The notes: a model not told the origin generated them from the letters alone. DNA of 64,000 nucleotides from the human T2T-CHM13v2.0 reference genome, Homo sapiens (GCF_009914755.1 NC_060926.1), one strand, 5' to 3'. Numbered from the stretch's first letter, positions 1-17,367 are shown. Program-made: numbers and translations.

Positions 1-2759
1 CTTTCTTTTCCATGGTTCAGATGCCCTTAAACTGTGAAGTCTATTTTAGAGAATCAGCACAACTACCTTTCTAGGGCACGTGAAGAAACACCTCTTACAT
101 GTCTGTCATGTCCTAGAAGCATTTACTCATTAGAGCTATATCTTCTCAAAGCAGTGAGAAGCCTTAGGCCCCACGTATTCCAAACCCAGGAACTTGAGGC
201 ATGGTAAGTCCAGGGACTTGGTCACAGTTGCACACGAGCGGTCTGACCAGGTTGGCACAGGATGGCGTACGGCCTCCTCTTGGAGATGAGCATCTTGGAG
301 GCTGCAGGCACTTTTCTGGGGCCGACAATTTAGGCTAAGAGGGCCTAGGGCAGGGGCCTGCGGAGGGGAAGCGGGCTGTCTAGGACTGGCTCTGAGGAGG
401 AAAAGAGAGTGAGAGGGATGCTCAGGATTCCTTATAAGCCATTAAAAACAAATAGGCATTCAAGTTCAGTGCAGGGTGAAAGAGCACAATTGATGGAGCA
501 CATCCGCCCACTGTGGCCTCTGCTGAGATACAGAGAGTTAGAACCTCCGGCATCTGCTAGGAGCCCCCGGCCTGTGTTGAGGCAAATGACTCGCCAGTTG
601 GGTTTGCTGGGGCTCTCAGCGAGGAGCAGAAAGGAGACAGTTGTCCAAAGAGAGGACATTAGCAAAATCAGTGCCCCAAACCAAGTTGAATCATAGCTGT
701 AAATACTCAGAGGAATTAACCTGTCACCTTGGTCTGAAGTTCAGCTGTGAGGGAGGGGACCCAGGGTTAGCAGAAGCCATCTGAGCAGAAGCTGCTCTGA
801 GCAGTGTGACCTTAAGCAATGCAAGGATCTTCAAAGAGTGACCAAGCCACAGACCTAACAGGAAACTCATGGGCAGGACACAGGGCCCTCCAGCCCCACC
901 TGCGTGCCATGCTGATAGTGATCACAGTCCAGGCTGGGAGCTTAAGACCAACACCCAGATTTCTGTGTGAGACTTTTGAAAATTTTTATCTCCTTCTGGC
1001 ATATAACTCGCGGGTGCACAGACACACCGGGAGAACACCATACCTCATTTACGTGATTGCTACAATTTGATGTGTGTGTTTAATAATTAATAGTGAACAT
1101 GTTAACTGACTTTCAAATAGTGGCTTGGGAGTCTTGGGGTTCCTCAGAGGTGACTCAGGGACCATCCTGGATGGTGGAATGGAAAATTGGAGAACATGGG
1201 AGCTGGGCTCCTGGATCTTCCCTTTCACCTCACTGCTCCCACCCCCTCCACATACCACAACTAGAGCCACACTGCTTTTATCCATATTGTATGTTGAGGA
1301 CTCACATAACATTTTATTTAACAGAACAGAATACTTCCGAGGAGGTCATGGTTTAGATACAATGAATATAATTCTTTCTAGCCAGTTTAAACAGAAATCA
1401 TTACAGAATTATTTGGAGAGATGAAGAAACGGACTCTAGGCTCCTCTTCCAGGGATGTCTTCCAAAGTCATATGAAAAACCTAGGCTGCCAAATAGAGCT
1501 GTTGATCTTGCCACAACCAGAAAGAAATCTGTGCAACCAGGAAGCTCTTGCTGCAGCTGCCAGCTCCAGAAACAGATAGGCTGAAGTCTAAGTTGACTGA
1601 GAGCCATCTAATATGGAATTGTTGATTGAGAAGGCCAATTGTGCACCTAACTGAGACTGCCAGGAGCAGCAGCTTTGAGTGGCAGTCTTAACAGGAGGTG
1701 AGGCGGGGCACTGCCATTCAAACATTGGTAGAAATGGCACTGCAGGCGCCACCTTCTGATCTAAGCCTTTTGCTTTAGATGTTCTCCAAGTGAACACTAT
1801 TAAGATGAGAGATGAGACAATAGCAGAGCACAGAGGTCAGTAAGTCAATGCCTTAGGCCTAGAGTTTTTTCTCCAGAAGAACATTTGGCTCTGGTTACTT
1901 GCACGTGGGCCTGACGAGAAACCATCTTGGTCATAGGGTGACCTTGGAAAGAAACAGACTAAGGCCACTTATATTGGGTTTTATACCACTTATAACCAGA
2001 CTTAATATGGACAAATATAAACTCCAAAACATGCCTTAGAAACAATGCCCTCTATAACGAAACTGACTTTAGAATAATTATCTCAAACGGCCTGTGAAAA
2101 TGAATGAATGAATGAATGGCTTTTTAGAAATATGTGTAGTAAAAGAATTAGCTTTAAAACTTTCAAGATTCTGTTACATTGTTTATTTCTACTCAGTGAT
2201 CATGTGCACTGTGTACAGAATGAAATTAAAAGATGAATGAAGGTGTTACTAAGATATGATCCATAACTGGCTTGCATTTTTTAACAAATATACATGAAAT
2301 TAAGCATTTATATGAGAGCTGTCCTCTTGGAAGTAAGCATGTAAGCAGATCACACACTTTCTATAATGATTTTCTTGAATCAAACCACTTTTAAAATTCA
2401 TCTTTAGAAACTCACAAACCAAGGCACAAAATAGCCAATACCCTTACATTTTCATTCTTTAGTCATGTGTTTTTGAAATTACCAAAGTCACTTGAGCTAA
2501 GGCTGATGAGTAATGGTGATAACCAAGTTGATTTTTTTAAAAATCAAAAGGAAGTTGTGATGTTAAAGTTACATTTGTTTTCTGCAGTGAGTTGCAAACC
2601 AGTTACTGACTTTTCAAGTTGTTTCTCTTGATTTTCAGTGTTATCATATTATTACATTCAAATTGTGAAACTTAGAAAAAGTATGGCCAAGAGGGAATTC
2701 AAGTTCATATTAAGCAAAGAGAGAAAAAGAGAGCACTTGGCTGCTTTAACTTTACATTT

Positions 2760-4660
2760 TAAAATGTTTATTATGAAACATTTGAAACATATGGAGAAGT
2801 AGAAGGAAATATGCAACAAATATTCATATATCTACAATCCAGACTCAAAGATTGTTAACATTTTCCCATATTTAATTTATTCCTGTCTTTTTTTCATACT
2901 GGATGTTTTTGTTGTAGGTTTGTTGCATCATGATGACATTACTCTTGAATACTTCCGCATGCATCTCCAGTAAATAGATGCTTATCTTCAAAATCACGAT
3001 TGCCAACATTTAACAAAATTAACAATCATTTTCTAACACTAAAATTGTCTATTTTGGGCCATCTTCAGGTGGATTCCTAAGTTCTTTTGACTCCACTGTA
3101 GTATTTTTGATCATTTCCTAATTTTGTTGTTGTGATTTTCTGATATGGGAAGGTGTTCCAGGCTTGTTCTTTTCTTAGTCCCGGACAAAGCCATTTCTCT
3201 AAGGAGCCATGGTTCCTTTCAGTGAGAAATTGTTTTCGGAGACCACAATTTGGGTCTAACAGTTGCACACTCTTAACTGAGTTCATCAATGTTTCTAGGC
3301 TTTCTGAGTAGATATAATAAGGAAATACATATACATCCATAAAATGAATTATAAATTAATACTGAAAATCCAATTTAAATTTAGGACCGCAGGTTTTACT
3401 TAGCCTCATCAACTTTACATTGGAATCACTGCCACGCAGAAAATTCCAGTTCCCAGTGGCATCAACATAATTGTTAATTTGCTTTATCCCTCAATGTACA
3501 TATATCCAAAAGGCATATATTGCAGAAGAATTATAATACCAACACATCCTTTAATATTTTGTTTCCTAAAAATAGTTGAAAACATTTTTGTACTATTTTA
3601 TCCCTTGAGAATATTTCACTAGAATATAGAGTCATCATTGTATTCTAAAGTTATTTGAAATTATTCCTCTTATTGTGGTTTTGTCAGTTAAACATATTTA
3701 TTTGTTTTGTTCTGATTTTTAGGAATTGATTTTTAAAATTTTATTTTGTTTTATAATAGGGCAAAACATTTTTCAAAATGATGTTGGTTTATCCTTCTAT
3801 ATTTTTATATAAGTAAATATTCATGCATATTTATTTCTTGTCACCTCTCACAGATAAATAGTAGAGATAAATAGTAGATATTATATACAATTTCTCCCCT
3901 TGATTTTACCACTTGATAATATATTCTAGAGATCACTCCATAATTGTACATGGAACTATTTCTGATAAATACTTTTTTTATACAGATACATGGTATACCA
4001 TTGTGTGGCTGTACTATAGTTTATTCAATCAGTCCCAAATATTTCCAGTCTTCTGCTCTTAGAATTTATGTTACAAAGAAGTCTTATGCATGCATATTTC
4101 ATGCTTTTTCCTTAGAATATTTTTGGGATATTAGACATAGGATTGCTGGGTCAGAGGGTAATACATATGTAATTTTGCTCCATATTGCCTAATTCATCTT
4201 CATAGGGGTTGTAACATTTTGTATTCTTATCATCAATGTCTTGGAGTGCTTGTGCCTTAGCTTTGGCCCATTTCTCTACAGAGATTTTGATCTCTTTCAT
4301 TATCATTGTGGGAAGGTTTTTACATGGTAGACATATTAAGACTTTGTGATGTAAATTGCAATTGTTTTCCAGTTTTTTTTCTTTGCTTTTAGATTTTAAA
4401 AGAATTAATCCATTCTTTCAATACAGATATGGACTCATTTTTCACTTTAAATCTTCAATCCATTTGGAATTTACTATGGTGTTTAGTCTGAGAAATGGAT
4501 CCATTGCATTGTTTTCATATGTCTGTGTATTTATCACAACACCACTTCTTAAAAAGTTCATTTTTTTACCCACTAACATAAGATGCCCATTTAATGTCTA
4601 TTCAATTTCCATATCCTATTAGACCTAGTTCTGGACCATCTATTCTGTTCCATTGGTCAA
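2760..4660 (-). mobile_element. Old L1M fragments
   Basis: T-rich degenerate sequence resembling L1 3' regions; boundaries approximate. Confidence 0.5.
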
Positions 4661-9349: not shown

Positions 9350-9470
9350 TGAGAAAAGAAAAAGAGTTCAGAGCAGCATGAGCCATGTGAGGTATGCAAA
9401 GTTTATCAGGCCCAGAGAGACATAAGTATGAGACTAAAGTCATGGCCTCTCTCCACCCATGCCTGGTGGC
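9350..9470 (+). mobile_element. Truncated 5' LTR-A (LTR47/MER72-like, tentative)
   Basis: Starts with TG; homologous to the start of 16656-17092, then breaks off. Confidence 0.65.
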
Positions 9471-11214
9471 ATCTTCCTGCCCCCAAGCATGACTAATTCA
9501 AGCCAATTAGGCCTTCCCGCTTTATGGTTGGAGGTCAGGCTCGCATCCATGGCATAGACAAGATCTAGGGAACTCAAAGGTTACCGACAGCAGGGGAAAG
9601 GCAGCGCGTAGGTAAATGCGGACAGTTCCCACTCCCAGGCCCCCTGTTAACATGGGTGAAAAGCTGCATTGGCACCCACGGGTTGCACCCTGCTGAGGTC
9701 ACTAGGACTTGGGAATATAAGGATGGAAGAAAGAAAAGGGGATGCTTCTTTCTCTCCCTCACATACCCCAGGTATTTGCTGGGAAGATAAAGAAACTAAG
9801 GATGCCTTTTTCCCTTCTTTCTAGATGGGTAACCAATCATCTTCAGCGTGTGTTTCTCTCAAATGCCTCCTGAATCACTGGGATTCCTTTGAGGAAAAAA
9901 GAAAAAGCCTTCTTTCCCCTTTTGCCTCCTCTGTCCTCTCTTCACAGATGGGTAATTGTGTCCCCATACCACAGGACACTCCCCTTGGGTGCACCCCCCA
10001 AACAGGGAAAACTTAATTACCCCAAACCTTAAGCTGCTTGGCTTAAAACCGAGCTCAGGGGAAGGGAACCCAGAAGTCTGACATGCCGGCAAAAGGATAA
10101 AAGTTTTTACCAGTCGGATTTCTGGCTTCCCTCTCCCTGTACAAATGATTGAATGGATGATAAAATCACTGTTTATATCCTCTGTGAAGTTTGGATTAAT
10201 GGAAAAAAGAATTTATGAGGCCAGTCTTAAGCTGTAACCAATCTGGTGTGCTTGGCGTGACTTTCTATATGGTTCTGCATGAAGAGGAGTACCTTAGGAT
10301 AGAATATGGGCCTAGGACCCCATAAGCCTACTGTTCAAGCCAGCCAGGCAAATGGTCAGCAACCAGCTTCGGGTCTCCATCTTGTTTTATGTTCTTGGGA
10401 GTTTGACATTGTAACCATGTGGCAATACTTTGTTTTGGTCTCTGCCATTTTATAACGGCAGCCTGGGTTCAATTCTGGCTTAGGGAATGAGTACTTTCTG
10501 GTTAATATCGTGTGACTTTTACCATTTGCTGATTTTCTTCCCCTCTGTGAACAACTTCTAGCTTCCTTTCTTAAATCTTCCTTTCTCAGAGTCACCTTTA
10601 AAGATTCCAGATTTTGTAAAAACTGCTTACCACTACTTTGAAAATACCTCATACACTCACAGTTAAGTCATAACCTTAGTTGAGGCTTGTTGGTTTCATC
10701 TGTGAGGTTACTTTCCATAAAGTTCAAAAGCCAGAAATATTGGCCGCGTGGCCTGGCTAAAGTCGGTTAACAGGGGACTTAAAAAGACTTTCTTAAAGAG
10801 TGCTCAGCTTAATTAAAAGTGGATATCCAAGGTATTGGTATATTTAAAAGGCCTTTTTTTTTTCCTTGGATCTTGTTTTTCTGGAAAAAGGCTTTTTCTC
10901 AGTCAACTGAATTATTTTTTTCCATTTAGTCTTGCCATTCTCGGTGCACGCATGAGAGGCCCTAAGATAACTTGTGAGAGCATGGGACTCCTTGGGAAAA
11001 ACAGAGAAGGTGCTAGAGACCCCATTTTGGGAAGAAAGCTCTGTTTTCCTTATGGAACCCCGAAATTAAAAACAGATAGGTCCCTCCCAAAATCTGTTTT
11101 TGTTTTCCAGCTATGCCTGTTTCTTGGGCCCTGAAAACTGCATGCTTTCCTAGCCCTGCTTCTTGAAGGACTCCACCCTGAGGCCAATGACCCAATTAGG
11201 AGATAGGCAAATGA

Positions 11215-11607
<393 letters not shown>

Positions 11608-11971
11608 TAATTCATTGACCTAAAGAAAAATAAACACTTAGATCAAATATTTTTCAAGGAGAAATAAAAGCTGTAATGCCTTTTAGTTCATGTGACTTTA
11701 ATCTTTGAAACATAAAAACAGTTTTAAAGATAATTGGTAAAGTGCAAATGTCTTCATATGTAAATATATGGTCTAAATTATGTGGGTCAGATACTAGGTT
11801 TGCTAAATGTTTTAAGGTTATAAACTACTTTTTTAGCTTTTGAGAACCATTTGATTTGTATACTTTACAATTTGGGAAGGCTTGTGGACATATGGAATTG
11901 CCCACCCCTTTAACTATGCTGGAAAGAGTAAGACCTTATCTGTGAATAGAACATAATTAAAATAACTTACC

Positions 11972-12973
11972 AGAGGCCAGTCTGAGGGCTCCAGTGCCCA
12001 AGTAGAGGCAGCAGGTGGCTCCCAAGGCCTGGGCCAGCCGGCCTTCTTCAGTCTGAAGGCCACGCCCTTCTTCCTGCTGCTGTCCAGTTGTCTTTTGACT
12101 GCCACATATGGACCCCCAAAGATCTCCAAAGGAAACTTTCCTCATTACAGGAGGAGGTGGCTATTTTGGTTTCCACCTGGGCCATGCTCTGAACCAAAAG
12201 GGAGTCCACGTAATTCTATTTGACATCAGCAGTCCTGCTCAAACCATTCCAGAAGGAATCAAGTTTGTACATGGAGACATCCGCCACCTCTCTGACATAG
12301 AGAAAGCCTTGACACAGATGTCACATGTGTGTTCCATATTGCCTCTTATGGTTTGTCAGGGAAGGAGCAACTAAATCAAAACCTGATCAAAGAGGTCAGC
12401 ATTGGGAGTACAGACAACATCCTCCAGGTTTGCCAGAGGAGGGGGGTGCCAGAGAAGAAGGTGCTGGAGGCGAAGAGCACACCCCTGGACAGAGGTGATG
12501 GTGTCTTAAGAACCTGTTCTCTGAGGCCGGCTGGCATCTATGGGCCTGGAGAACAAAGACACCTTCCCAGAATAGTCAGCTATATTGAGAAAGACACGTT
12601 CAAGTTTGTCTGTGGAGATCCTAGAAGCCTGGTTGAGTCTGTCCATGTGGATAACTTGGTGCAGGCTCACATTCTGGCCTCAGAGGCCCTGAGAGCTGAC
12701 AAGGGACATATTGCCTCTGGACAGCCCTACTTTGTCTCAGATGGCTGACCAGTGAACAATTTTGAGTTCTTCTGGCCTCTGGTTGAGGATCTGGATTACA
12801 TGCTCCCATCCACCCACCAGCCGTTGACCATGGTCTACTGCTTTGCTTTCCTAAAACAGATGGCTCGCTTCATTTTGGGTTGACTCTACAACTTCCAGCC
12901 CCTCCTCACCCACACTGAAGGTTACAAAACTGGTGTCACCCATTATTTTAGCTTAGGGAAAGCCAAGAAAGAG
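11972..12973 (+). pseudogene. SDR42E1P5: Processed, 3'-truncated SDR42E1 pseudogene (extended SDR / 3-beta-HSD-like) inside an ERV
   Basis: ATG 12108 MDPQRSPKETFLITGGGGYFGFHLG (Rossmann TGxxGxxG); frameshift near 12310; ...LRPAGIYGPGEQRHLPRIV...VHVDNLVQAH...; TGA at 12746 and 12881; intronless; ends at ...GKAKKE. The parent gene is confident; the P-number is from memory. Confidence 0.9.
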
Positions 12974-14594
12974 ATAACCAAATTTATTTGTCAATCATGT
13001 TCTTGACTGTAACTACACTGGACATTTTGTCATTCATAGACAATTGTTGTCTTGCTTTGATTCTTTTCAAAAGATGGTTTGTAATCAGCTATAGAACTTT
13101 GACAGGTGCTCTAAAATGCAGGTTTCTGAGAACTTTGGAGATTATAATATTGGAATAGAGGGAAATGTACAGGATTCATGAAGAGCTGAAATGTTCATGA
13201 ATATCAAGCAGAACAAGAGTTAATGGAATAGACTGAGCTAATAGAAAACTGAAGTAATCTTTTTAACTTTTGGCTTAAAACGTTGCTGATCCTTGTTTTC
13301 CAGAGGCAAGGAAACTTATTTTGAGTTATCTACAGTCTTTAATAATTGAGTAAGCTATACTCTTCTGAACAAAATTTGGAGCGTATTTGTTTCTCTCTCT
13401 GCCTGGCTTCTCCTGAATTTGGAAACTATTTGTAAGTATTCTTACCTTGCGGCAATACAGTTATTTGCATCAGTGTAATAAAAGTCCATTTTCTTTTGCA
13501 ACAGGACACAATTGGAGAAACTGGTTGTTTACCAAGGCTTTGACTGGAAGGATATGCTTCCACTTAAGGAATCTGGCTTGACTTGAAGAGCCAATAAAAG
13601 CCCCCTAGGAAAACTGGCCTCATTCCTTGTCTACACCATCCCTGCACAGGATTCCTAACCTGTGATGACTAAAGAATGTCATTTTCTAACGGGCCCTATG
13701 TTTTTGGGACTTAAAGAAGAGAGAAATTCACAAAACTCATAGGTGTTTGAGGGTACAAACCCACGGCTAGGCTGGGCTTTAAAAGGTCTTATCTGAGATT
13801 TCTTGTGGAACAGAATTCCCTCAAAGCCAATTTAAAAGCCTATGTGAAAAATAATTATTCTTGCTGCACTTTATGCAAATAATCAGGCCAAGTATAAGAC
13901 TAAAATCTATTTTGCAAACAACTCAGTCCTATCGTGATTTGTTTTTGATAAAAATGAGGACTGGAGAGAGAAAAATTATGTTTCAAAACATATATGCTTG
14001 TCATTAAATTCTAATCTCATCAATTGTTTTTAAGATTTTGCCTACATTTTAGACTAACCTTGCTTATTCCTGTGAAACAACCAGTGATCTCTGGCTACAG
14101 ATCAGAAGAAACAAAAGGGATGGGTAAAGTAAAAATCTGGATCAATGTTTTAATTCTGAGCAATTATCTTGCAAATCCTGCCAGGTGAACCCAGAGGGTT
14201 CTTTTTTTTTTGGGAAAATAAGACCAAGGGAGCTAACCAAAGCAAAGCACCATGCATCCAAATCTTAGCAGGCATAGCTGTAGCCATCAGTTATCTGGGC
14301 ATATTGGCAGCCTTGGGATTTTTGAGCTGTCCTTCCCCCCTTGTTTCATTTTTATATATGTCTGCTAATAACCCAAATTGTTTATTCTCATTTAGAGGCC
14401 ATTAAACTTCAAATGATGATGCAAATGAATCCATGCATGAATATGCTATTCTTCCAGGGACCCTTAAACCATACTTAGGAGGAGCCCTAATTCAGCTTTC
14501 CCAAAACAGCACACCCTGTCAGCAGGAAGCAGTTAAGAACAGTCATTATCCACTTTCTCTAATAGCAGTTGGGGTCTCCTCCTGGAGGGGGTAA

Positions 14595-15051
14595 TGAAAG
14601 GAGTTAGCCAGCTTGCCTTAGGCAGACAGTAAGAGAAGGGTCCCCAGAGAACCGGCGACCCACCCCACAAGCACTTACATCAGTTGTTTTGTGCAGATAA
14701 GGGAACTTGCACAGGAGGCTTACCTAAACATGCCTACAGTGGAAAATCCCATCCCTTAAAACATGTGCAGTAAGGAAAATAAATCAATATGGAGCAAGTC
14801 AGTCTAAGTGCCCGCATGTTCATTGGAAGGACGGGGTGGAGCTACCAGGAATTCACACCTTATGCCCTGGTATTCAACTGTGAAGGGGGCAGCCGGAAAC
14901 CTGCTTTTCAGGGTCCCTGTCTGCTGAGAGCCTTCCTTTCACTTAATAAATTCTACTCCACTCACTCTTTGATGTCTGAGTGCATATTTCTTCCTCGTTA
15001 TGAGACAAAAACCTAGACCTAGCTGAGCTAAGGAGCAAAAATCCTGCATCA
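14595..15051 (+). mobile_element. Complete LTR-B (MER61/MER83-like ERV1 LTR, tentative)
   Basis: TG...CA termini; preceded by polypurine tract ggagggggtaa; internal AATAAA near 14945. Confidence 0.75.
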
Positions 15052-16655
15052 TTGGTGTGGATATATTATTAATATGTGCTCCAAAATCATGTGAAATTTG
15101 TAAAATTCTGATATGTCTTTATATACATTGTCAGATATAATTATGATTGTTATTTTAAAATGTTGTCTGCCACAGAAATAACCAAATTTCCTTGTCACAT
15201 GCATCTTTAGCCATGGCTAAAGACTTAGAGTACTAAGTCCTTTGTCATCCACAGACATTTGTTGTCTTACTTTGATTCTTCTCAAAAAACGGTTTATAAT
15301 CAGCTATAGTCCAAAATTTGCTTTTTCTCCAAGGAGATTCTTGAAAGTGTACCTTGACAAGTACTCTTGAATACAGGTTTCTGATTACTTTAGATATTAT
15401 ATGATTGGACTGTGTAAAAACACTCAGAACTCTAATAAACTGATGCATTCACGAAGATTGCTAGCCCAACCTCAAGCACAAGAAAAGTTAATGACATGGG
15501 ACTGAAGTGATAGAGGACTGAAATGATTTTTAAGATGTTTTGTTTGAAGCATTGCTGATTCTTTTTATATTTTGTTTGCCAGAGTCATGAAAAAAATTCT
15601 TTTCAGCTATTTGTAGATTATAGCCATTGGGTAAAATAGATCTTTGTGAGTAAAATTGAAGCATTTGCCTTTCTCTCCACCTGATTTCTCCAAAATTTGG
15701 AAACTATATGTGAGCATTTTTATTTTATTGGCAATGTAGTTATTTGCATAAGTTTAATAAGAATCTGTTTTCTGTAACAGGACACAATTGGAGACACTGA
15801 TTATTTTACCAAGGCTTTGACTGGAATGGCATATTTTCAGATATAACCAGACTGCTTTGAAGAATTGAAATTGACTTTATAGAACCAATCAAAAGCCTCT
15901 TGAAAAGGATGGCATAGTAACTTATGTACATGGTTCCTTTTTAAGGTTTCTAATTTTGCAGTAAGTAAAGAATACCATTTTCTGACAGCTCTAGGGTCCT
16001 CAAGACATGTTGGAACCTCAAGAAGAGAGGAATTTACCCAATTTGTACAGGTATCACAGGTACATCCTGGTGGCAAATTCTTGGCTTGGCTTCCTAACCT
16101 CGAGGCTTTTAAAAGTGTAATCCAAAATGCCCTGTGAAAGTTCCAGCAAAGCCAACTTAAAACAGCCTATAGGTCTAATCATGATTCTTATTGCACTTTA
16201 TGCAAATAATCAGACCAAGTATAATACTATATCTTATTTTACAAGTAAATTGATCCTAGTAAGATTTATCTTTGGTAGAAATGGGAAACTGGAGAGAGTA
16301 AAATTATGTTTCCAAGGAAGATTATAGCATACCTGTTATTAGATCGCAGCCCTGACCATTAATTGTTTTTGAGTTTTTATTATTTTCCTAAAATTTGGAT
16401 TGAATCCCCAGTGAAATAGGTTTCACCACGTATCTCTCATTGCTGTACTTCTTCCAAGACAAACAAAAGCATAAAACTTCAAAAACTAGAGATAATTCAA
16501 CAAGCAATGGAAGTTATATAAATCACTTGACTGGGATCTATCTAGGAATGGGCCTTCCTTGGGATGCCAAGGGATGAAGGATGCCTATTCTAACCTAAGC
16601 AGAGTTTGATCATCAGTGCTTCCATGGGAAGATTTTTGATCTAAGTGGGGAGAAA

Positions 16656-17092
16656 AGAGAGAAGAAAAATAGCTCAGAGTAGTGTGAGCTATCTGAGGTA
16701 TGCAAAATTTATTAGGCCCAGAGAGATATGAGTACGTGACTTCAGTCATGCTCCCCACCTCTCACCCCCCCACTGTACTCATGCCTAGGGCAATTGTTTA
16801 AAGTCATTTTGTTTCTGACTAGCTACCTCATTCATTATCTTCAGGTTCTCGAACATCATGAGACAGACAACATGGATAGCCAATCAATAGCTTGTCTTAT
16901 TTTAATGTAATTCTTGCTAAACAACTTAGAAACTGCCTCTTATTTTCCTTTAAAAATCTACTTGTAACTGCTGCTGGTCAGAGAATATATTCAGAACAAC
17001 TTGAATCTATGGTCCCACAATGTGATCCTCAAGCTCTGCCCAAATAAAGTCTTTACTTATATTAATTATGACACAGCTTGTTTTTAGGTCGA
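16656..17092 (+). mobile_element. 3' LTR-A
   Basis: Preceded by PPT aagtggggaga; AATAAA near 17043; followed by the CCAG TSD. Confidence 0.7.
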
Positions 17093-17367
17093 CCAGCAAA
17101 AGATCTTGCAGGTAGAAGATGGATAGTATATGTTTCTTGGATTAAATTCATGACTATACACTATAATTATTTCTCTCTCAAAAATATGAATAGTTGGAAG
17201 TCAAAAAAGTGTTTTATTTCTCCTTGAACCATATTTCTGAGAAAATAATAGGTATGCACAACATAATTTGAAACATAAATTCACCAAGTGGACTCATTTC
17301 CATTTCATCCAGGAATTTATCTCAAGTGAAATAGAACTCATTTGGCCAATGGTAACATGGTAATATA

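What the first reader, a model, noticed from the sequence alone, without database searches (positions are those of the whole stretch)
11972..12990. SDR42E1 copy looks captured by an endogenous retrovirus (transduction), not inserted by L1
Seen: an intronless SDR42E1 copy (about 135 nt of leader plus CDS) sits sense-oriented inside ERV internal sequence. It stops mid-CDS at ...aagaaagag, has no poly(A) and no TSD, and runs straight into ataaccaaattt. The paralogous internal segment of the same composite reads ccacagaaataaccaaattt (15170-15189), so the junction shows a short aga(g) microhomology. The viral sequence that precedes that point in the paralog (15052-15170) is missing here, so the cellular sequence appears to replace viral sequence. 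Established: substitution of internal viral sequence by spliced cellular mRNA through RT template switching is the retroviral transduction signature (v-onc capture; FAM8A1 pseudogenes in a HERV), whereas L1 retrocopies carry poly(A) and TSDs. Inference: a non-autonomous ERV1 captured SDR42E1 and may have spread it, which could explain multiple dispersed SDR42E1 pseudogenes.
Basis: partly seen in the sequence, partly recalled or inferred. Interest (0 to 1): 0.85.

Follow-up and report, generated by a model that had tools for sequence, protein, structure and literature searches.

The report
SDR42E1 cDNA copy replacing ERV interior
A spliced, tail-less copy of the SDR42E1 gene sits exactly where about 1 kb of an old non-coding endogenous retrovirus should be; it may be a rare fossil of gene capture by a retrovirus, but an ordinary L1-made pseudogene followed by a deletion fits almost as well, and it never spread.

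Summary
w11974-12976 is an intronless SDR42E1 copy with a 134-nt leader and CDS nt 1-1002 of 1182, lacking a 128-nt GT..AG stretch. It has no poly(A) and no target-site duplication. It lies in sense inside a non-coding LTR element of a family with hundreds of copies, about 457-bp TG..CA LTRs, a polypurine tract and a tRNA-Pro-type primer site.

All 13 other copies tested that hold both flanks carry about 945-1050 nt of family sequence between the two joins. The window has none of it, so this is a replacement, not a simple insertion. Insert and carrier are equally old (branch 0.075 each).

The mechanism stays open. A double template switch during reverse transcription (LTR-mediated retroposition) gets about 0.45. 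An L1-made retrocopy followed by a roughly 2.6-kb deletion gets about 0.40. A perfect L1 nick site (TT|AAAA) lies 15 nt upstream of the 5' join, and microhomology at both joins is less secure than it looks.

No second copy exists in this genome. The four chr9 pseudogenes are segmental duplicates of one older, independent retrocopy.

If it is a capture, it is a new member of a known, rare kind. SDR42E1 is absent from the one published human list I could read.

The parts
9350..9481 (+). First ~130 nt of a different LTR type ('LTR-A'). Probably the remnant of the 5' LTR of an older, related outer element.
   Evidence: 80% identical to w16657-16759. 39 other genome places match only w9343-9474.
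9486..11220 (+). Internal sequence of the carrier ERV, 5' part. The 5' LTR, primer-binding site and ~957 nt that full copies hold upstream are absent.
   Evidence: 80-82% identity to positions 1817-3580 of the chr2:162.9M copy and to the chr11 and chr12 copies. No retroviral Pfam domain.
11221..11517 (-). Alu insertion with a ~15-nt target-site duplication (CAAATGAAAAA(A)TCT) and a T-run. It is secondary.
   Evidence: Family copies run straight across this point, with overlapping subject coordinates.
11518..11973 (+). Internal sequence of the carrier ERV up to the 5' join. It ends ..aattaaaataacttaccag and contains TT|AAAA 15 nt before the join.
   Evidence: 38 of 39 other full-length matches end at w11966-11974; 942 first-look candidates, 40 scored..
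11974..12082 (+). SDR42E1 exon-1-derived leader. w12025-12083 matches chr16:88075102-88075159. w11974-12024 matches the 55 nt upstream of that only weakly.
   Evidence: 74.6% over 59 nt, E 2.4e-5, ending at the parent's GT donor. For the upstream part, 51 of 5000 shuffles reach the score.
12083..12175 (+). SDR42E1 exon 2 with the ATG at w12108.
12176..12973 (+). SDR42E1 last exon up to CDS nt 1002 of 1182. A 128-nt GT..AG-bounded stretch (CDS 348-475) is missing at w12450/12451. The frame is broken.
   Evidence: Pfam 3Beta_HSD.
12970..12973 (+). AGAG at the 3' join. It is shared by the parent and by 8 of 28 family copies.
12974..14594 (+). Internal sequence of the carrier ERV, 3' part, ending in the polypurine tract ggagggggtaa (w14584-14594).
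   Evidence: 38 other places start at w12969-12987; 1490 first-look candidates, 40 scored..
14595..15051 (+). 3' LTR of the carrier ERV (TGAAAGG...CATCA, 457 bp).
   Evidence: Matches both LTRs of the chr2, chr11 and chr12 copies. The ends are read.
15052..16650 (+). Homology to other members starts within 4 nt of the carrier's LTR end.
   Evidence: 74% identity to L069/L070 from w15050/15055 to w17065/17093. Their upstream continuation is absent from the window.
16650..17093 (+). Complete LTR of the outer element ('LTR-A').
   Evidence: Most of the 39 other matches span w16657-17093; 535 first-look candidates, 40 scored.

Best explanation
SDR42E1P5 is a fossil of LTR-mediated retroposition, i.e. 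retroviral-type transduction.

Proposed course of events (all inferred):
1. About 35-45 My ago an SDR42E1 mRNA, an isoform lacking a 128-nt GT..AG stretch, was packaged together with the RNA of a non-coding, helper-dependent class-I-like ERV.
2. During minus-strand synthesis, reverse transcriptase left the ERV RNA at the point now at w12974 and continued on the mRNA at CDS nt 1002.
3. It copied the mRNA to or near its 5' end and returned to the ERV RNA about 945-1050 nt upstream of where it had left.
4. The chimeric DNA integrated once, into an older related provirus.

Later events: an Alu landed in it, and a deletion removed its 5' LTR, primer site and ~957 nt of leader.

Shown: the anatomy, the replacement, the single copy and the equal age. 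Inferred: the co-packaging and both template switches.
For: 1. The copy is spliced. It carries its leader, lacks the last 180 nt of CDS and the whole 3' UTR, and has no poly(A) or TSD.
2. Both flanks are one co-linear element in the same sense as the cDNA. Full copies of the family have LTR pairs (82% and 83% identical), a TGGGGGCTTGTCCAGAAT-type primer site right after the 5' LTR, a polypurine tract and TG..CA ends.
3. It is a replacement. All 13 other copies tested that hold both flanks carry the ~945-nt stretch (two only in part); the window has none of it. Tan et al. describe exactly this for LTR-mediated copies (PMC5131818, passages).
4. Ages match. The insert's own branch is 0.075 (three-taxon, chr9 copy as outgroup, ~255 non-CpG sites). 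The carrier flank's branch is 0.075 (star tree, 15 copies, ~1300 sites). LTR-LTR distances of two other copies are 0.141 and 0.167.
5. Possible microhomology at both joins: AGAG at the 3' join and CCAG(G) at the 5' join. A random join gives >=4 nt in 1.8% of 200,000 trials.
6. The carrier's 3' LTR end abuts the outer element cleanly, as an integrated provirus would.
Against: 1. TT|AAAA, the L1 endonuclease consensus (recalled from memory), lies so that a 15-nt TSD would end exactly at the 5' join. Only 1.6-4.1% of positions in this family's interior have such a site 7-20 nt upstream.
2. AGAG is shared only if the source read gagata (8 of 28 copies). 14 of 28 read gaaata, which leaves no microhomology.
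3. CCAG(G) at the 5' join needs a 1-nt gap. It rests on a weak alignment of w11974-12024 to the parent: 51 of 5000 shuffles reach the score, and a higher chance score exists elsewhere in the same 6.4-kb locus.
4. The chimeric element has no 5' LTR, so no TSD of the provirus can be checked. The locus has plainly lost kilobases by deletion.
5. There are no secondary copies.
6. Equal age does not exclude an L1 insertion soon after integration. By my rough estimate (no call gave it), the standard error of the insert's branch is about 0.017.
Confidence: 0.45

Rival explanations
1. Ordinary L1-mediated processed pseudogene plus a later deletion. A full-length SDR42E1 mRNA was inserted by target-primed reverse transcription at a TT|AAAA site in the resident ERV, with a 15-nt TSD (AAAATAACTTACCAG). 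One later deletion of roughly 2.6 kb removed the copy's last 180 nt of CDS, its 3' UTR, the poly(A), the second TSD copy and ~945 nt of ERV.
For: A consensus nick site sits at a typical TSD distance from the 5' join; chance is 1.6-4.1%. The copy is 5'-complete, as many L1 retrocopies are. This locus shows another kilobase-scale loss: the 5' LTR, primer site and ~957 nt of the carrier, plus the 5' part of the outer element. Other family copies carry kilobase deletions, e.g. L010. An Alu with intact TSD 450 nt away shows L1 machinery acted on this element. L1 made thousands of human retrocopies against three LTR-flanked ones (PMC5131818 section 6).
Against: It needs two events, and a deletion with one end in the cDNA and the other in the ERV. 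The insert is as old as the carrier, so insertion would have had to follow integration quickly. No remnant of poly(A) or of the second TSD is left. The ~2.6 kb size uses a 3' UTR length of ~1.5 kb that I recall and did not measure.
Confidence: 0.4
2. Repair of a double-strand break in the resident ERV by endonuclease-independent reverse transcription. A resected DNA end primed on the mRNA at internal microhomology (AGAG), the RT ran to the 5' end, and the cDNA was joined to the other end. About 945 nt of target were lost.
For: It predicts all visible features: 3' truncation, no poly(A), no TSD, target deletion and a 5'-complete copy.
Against: Such events are rare. Orientation relative to the ERV would be random, and the TT|AAAA at -15 would be a coincidence. 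As above, AGAG is uncertain.
Confidence: 0.08

Closest known systems
FAM8A1 retrocopies inside HERVK14 (Jamain et al. 2001, known to me only as cited by Tan et al. 2016, PMC5131818; Suppl. Table 8 rows seen)
   Same: An intronless host cDNA flanked on both sides by one discontinuous ERV in the human genome, without L1 hallmarks.
   Different: FAM8A1 has two copies (chr6, chr11), i.e. the chimera was copied again, with 12-nt microsimilarity. It sits in a beta-like HERV-K relative. SDR42E1P5 is single, older (about 11-12% against 8-9% divergence from the parent), in a non-coding Pro-primed element, and its microhomologies are at most 4-5 nt.
Retrocopy of ENSG00000176788 in a 'MER4' element on chr13 (Tan et al. 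2016, Suppl. Table 8)
   Same: A single copy in an old class-I ERV of the non-autonomous 'MER4' kind. It has little or no microsimilarity (0 and a 44-nt filler) and similar uncertainty.
   Different: It is not the same family. I located the place through Pfam BASP1; that ENSG00000176788 is BASP1 is recalled, not checked. Its flank shares only 67-76% identity over 74-201 nt with the carrier family, in the opposite orientation.
Oncogene transduction by acutely transforming retroviruses (recalled; the template-switch model is cited in PMC5131818)
   Same: Spliced cellular sequence replaces internal viral sequence, in sense, between retained cis elements.
   Different: There is no sign of selection for the captured ORF, which is truncated and broken. 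There was no spread, and the vector is a non-coding endogenous element.
L1-made processed pseudogenes
   Same: An intronless copy of an mRNA with its 5' leader, and a consensus nick site at TSD distance upstream.
   Different: No poly(A), no TSD, truncated at the 3' end rather than the 5' end, and ~945 nt of target are missing.

Membership tests
LTR-mediated retrocopy (criteria of Tan et al. 2016) | Intronless copy of a host mRNA | tested here: met
   The 563-bp intron is absent, and the exon 1-2 join lies at the parent's GT and AG sites.
LTR-mediated retrocopy (criteria of Tan et al. 2016) | Both flanks belong to one LTR element, which is discontinuous by more than 20 bp (replacement) | tested here: met
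   Co-linear flanks. About 945-1050 nt are missing that 13 of 13 other copies hold.
LTR-mediated retrocopy (criteria of Tan et al. 2016) | No L1 hallmark (poly(A), TSD) | tested here: inconclusive
   No poly(A) and no TSD. But a TT|AAAA site lies 15 nt upstream of the 5' join.
LTR-mediated retrocopy (criteria of Tan et al. 2016) | Microsimilarity at the switch points | tested here: inconclusive
   3' join: AGAG only if the source read gagata (8 of 28 copies). 5' join: CCAG(G) only with a 1-nt gap and a weak leader alignment.
LTR-mediated retrocopy (criteria of Tan et al. 2016) | Whole locus (ERV plus cDNA) absent from outgroups and appearing together | not testable with these tools
   No primate genome other than this one is held. 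Equal branch lengths of insert and carrier are the only proxy.
Transduced retrovirus that replicated | Further copies with the same joins at other integration sites | tested here: not met
   10 of 10 candidates were scored: parent, self and four chr9 places with other ends. No junction-spanning match.
Class I (gamma-like) endogenous retrovirus | LTR pair with TG..CA ends, primer-binding site after the 5' LTR, polypurine tract before the 3' LTR | tested here: met
   Shown for full family copies. The window copy keeps only the polypurine tract and the 3' LTR. Reading the site as tRNA-Pro type rests on recall of the canonical 18-mer.
Class I (gamma-like) endogenous retrovirus | gag, pol and env coding remnants | tested here: not met
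   0 of 72 stop-to-stop frames (w8500-17500, Alu frames left out) match a retroviral Pfam family at E<=0.1. Hence a non-coding, helper-dependent family. Its Repbase/Dfam name could not be determined.
L1-made processed pseudogene | 3' poly(A) and flanking TSD | tested here: not met
   They would have to have been deleted.

The most novel reading that the evidence does not exclude
SDR42E1P5 records a genuine capture of a host mRNA by a non-coding, helper-dependent Pro-primed ERV in an anthropoid ancestor. It would be a third independent human case beside FAM8A1 and the chr13 copy listed by Tan et al., and the first in a vector with no genes of its own. The switch back to the viral RNA would have been forced at or near the capped 5' end of the mRNA. 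The carrier family may itself be a product of such jumps. In 4 of 28 loci, what looks like that subfamily's terminal repeat is homologous to a stretch lying ~900 nt inside the 5' part of the other copies.
Probability: 0.45. Interest if true: 0.45.

Novelty: new member of a known kind. Interest (0 to 1): 0.33.

Why it matters
Host-gene capture by endogenous retroviruses is well documented in flies, plants and mice. In humans it rests on very few loci: three retrocopies from two parent genes in Tan et al. 2016. A further, older case in a gene-less vector would show that helper-dependent ERVs also co-packaged and recombined with cellular mRNAs in primate germ lines. If it instead proves to be an L1 copy plus a deletion, it is a useful warning. 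The usual criteria (same ERV on both sides, a gap in the ERV, no poly(A)/TSD) cannot by themselves tell the two apart. Nothing suggests a function: the ORF is truncated and broken.

Tried and rejected
1. First reading of the chr9 copies as intron-bearing duplicates (after): rejected. They are processed across the exon join and are split by a ~6.5-kb insertion with an overlapping 8-nt match.
2. First guess of the 3' LTR start at w14517 (tgtcagc): rejected for w14595 (TGAAAGG after the polypurine tract).
3. w12970 as a viral splice acceptor (suggested by L010): rejected. L010 is an internal deletion joining 35 nt upstream.
4. Looking for SDR42E1 exon 1 at chr16:88079001-88088000: nothing. It was found at 88075102-88075159. 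The genome's first look did not find the leader elsewhere.
5. Naming the family: literature tables (PMC5753468, PMC4724089; passages) gave no way to match a sequence to a name. HUERS-P, MER52 and MER4 are recalled leads only.
6. The same family around the chr13 copy: no.
7. TPRT with internal priming on the A-rich AAGAAAGAG: considered on the sequence and dropped, because the join keeps GAG after the A-run.
8. A chimera made by L1 RT from an ERV transcript: dropped, because the 3' LTR runs through U5 to its CA end.
I worked from the 3.4-kb loci and a few smaller fetches.

Full report
THE COPY

w11974-12976 is a processed copy of SDR42E1, and RefSeq already lists it as SDR42E1P5 (12025..12976). 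Against the chr16 parent it matches exon 2, the first part of the last exon, and w12450-12976, at 87-90% identity. The 563-bp intron is gone.

The true exon-2 start is w12083, after the parent's cag acceptor. Exon 1 was found at chr16:88075102-88075159, matching w12025-12083 at 74.6% (E 2.4e-5) and ending at a GT donor.

The 51 nt between the 5' join and w12025 align, with CpG-decay-type differences, to the 55 nt upstream of that exon. This alignment is weak: 51 of 5000 shuffles reach the score, and a higher chance score exists elsewhere in that 6.4-kb locus.

A 128-nt stretch is missing at w12450/12451. It is bounded by GT..AG and also by a CAG repeat, so it could be a spliced 'exitron' or a small deletion.

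With GT-AG splicing the parent ORF is 393 aa. The copy ends at CDS nt 1002 of 1182. Pfam sees 3Beta_HSD (E 3e-27) and Epimerase in the copy.

THE CARRIER

The flanks belong to one repeated family. 38 places in this genome start matching at w12969-12987 (1490 first-look candidates, 40 scored). 38 of 39 other full-length matches stop at w11966-11974 (942 candidates, 40 scored).

Three full copies were read from overlapping loci (chr2:162.9M, chr11:28.3M, chr12:29.0M). They show the following:
- LTRs matching the window's 457-bp one, with pair identities of 82% and 83% in the two copies for which both LTRs were read.
- LTR ends TGAAAGG...CATCA.
- A primer site of tRNA-Pro type two bases after the 5' LTR (TGGGGGCTTGTCCAGAAT in the chr11 copy; the assignment is by recall of the canonical site).
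- A purine tract before the 3' LTR.

None of 72 stop-to-stop frames of w8500-17500 (Alu frames left out) matches a retroviral Pfam family. The family is therefore non-coding and must have been helper-dependent. I could not name it.

THE REPLACEMENT

14 of the 28 loci hold both flanks, 756-1302 nt apart. The 945-nt stretch between the joins in the chr2 copy is found in all 13 others, two of them only in part. It is found nowhere in the 64-kb window. The 1003-nt cDNA thus stands in place of about 945-1050 nt of ERV, in sense.

THE JOINS

5' join:
- Family: ..aaaataacttaccag|gttttaca..
- Window: ..aaaataacttaccag|aggccagtc..
- Parent..gctccagg|aggcaggtc..
CCAG(G) is shared only if a 1-nt gap is allowed.

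3' join:
- Parent: ..aagaaagag|ctaggtt
- Window: ..aagaaagag|ataaccaaa
- Family..ccacagagata|acc in 8 of 28 copies..ccacagaaata|acc in 14 of 28, and otherwise in 6
AGAG is therefore shared only under the minority reading.

A random join gives 4 nt or more in 1.8% of 200,000 trials. Because of these uncertainties I do not multiply the two.

AGE

All distances are non-CpG K2P.
- Copy against parent: 0.097 over 844 sites.
- The copy's own branch, with a chr9 copy as outgroup: 0.075 over about 255 sites.
- The carrier flank's branch under a star tree of 15 copies: 0.075.
- LTR pairs of two other copies: 0.141 and 0.167.
The insert is as old as its carrier. Roughly 35-45 My is my own conversion with an assumed rate.

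SPREAD

All 10 first-look candidates for the SDR42E1 part were scored. They are the parent, this copy and four chr9 places. The chr9 copies have these properties:
- They are processed and 78% identical to the parent.
- They keep the 128 nt and have other ends.
- They are split by a ~6.5-kb insertion.
- They have no flank of this family.
- They are 98.6-99.8% alike over 3.3 kb including flanks.
They represent one older retrocopy multiplied by segmental duplication. The chimera is unique.

THE SURROUNDINGS

The carrier lacks its 5' LTR, primer site and ~957 nt. It starts at w9486 beside the first ~130 nt of another LTR type, whose full copy is at w16650-17093.

w15052-16650 is the 3' interior of that older family. 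Other members align from w15050/15055 onward, and their upstream continuation is absent from the window.

The simplest history is that the carrier integrated into the older provirus, and a later deletion removed the left part of both. An Alu with a ~15-nt TSD sits at w11221-11517.

MECHANISM

Capture by template switching fits the replacement, the sense orientation, the missing 3' end and tail, the equal age and the published pattern (PMC5131818: passages, section 6).

Against it, TT|AAAA lies so that a 15-nt TSD would end exactly at the 5' join. Only 1.6-4.1% of positions in this family's interior have that property. The locus has also lost kilobases elsewhere.

A full-length L1 retrocopy followed by one deletion of about 2.6 kb therefore remains nearly as likely. 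That size uses a recalled 3' UTR length. Break repair by endonuclease-independent reverse transcription (recalled from the literature) is a minor third possibility.

My odds are 0.45 for capture, 0.40 for L1 plus deletion and 0.08 for break repair. They are rough and depend on priors I could not measure.

LITERATURE

- Searches for SDR42E1 with 'retrovir' found 3 papers, none relevant by listing.
- Searches for SDR42E1P1-P5/HSPC105 found 20 papers, 15 of them listed, none on its origin by listing.
- Tan et al. list three human LTR-flanked retrocopies: two of ENSG00000137414 in HERVK14 and one of ENSG00000176788 in MER4. SDR42E1 has 0 occurrences in the one supplementary file that could be read.
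- That paper's PDFs, figures and methods documents could not be read, so I cannot exclude that the locus is mentioned there.

Noticed in passing
w9486; L010, L013, L023, L026, L029, L053 and the chr2/chr11/chr12 copies: The base where the window's carrier begins (AGCATGAC..) is also the right edge of a ~155-nt gap. The three full copies show this gap relative to six other loci, with AGCAT at both edges. These are either two independent breaks at one base or a hot spot.
   Followed up: partly
L013, L023, L026, L029 (chr3, chr7, chr13, chr9 copies of the family): In 4 of 28 loci the interior ends at the w14299 equivalent. It is followed by a stretch homologous to what lies ~900 nt inside the 5' part of the other copies (the w9486-9846 equivalent and what precedes it). 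The family may be an old recombinant carrying an LTR-like piece internally.
   Followed up: partly
chr9 loci L033-L041: There are four near-identical copies (98.6-99.8% including flanks) of an older processed SDR42E1 copy. It is split by a ~6.5-kb insertion with an 8-nt overlap of the two halves. These are presumably SDR42E1P1-P4 in pericentromeric duplications.
   Followed up: partly
w12450/12451; chr16:88063535-88063662: The 128 nt missing from the copy are bounded by a canonical GT..AG inside the parent's coding exon (CDS 348-475; not a multiple of 3). The source mRNA may have been an exitron-spliced isoform. A CAG repeat at both edges allows a plain deletion instead.
   Followed up: no
w11221-11517: An antisense Alu with a ~15-nt target-site duplication sits inside the carrier ERV.
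   Followed up: yes
L072 (chr13:22094713-22098279): A broken BASP1-like copy (Pfam PF05466; 2 TGA and 3 TAA inside). I take it for the MER4-flanked retrocopy of Tan et al. Its flank shares 67-76% identity over 74-201 nt with the carrier family, in the opposite orientation.
   Followed up: partly
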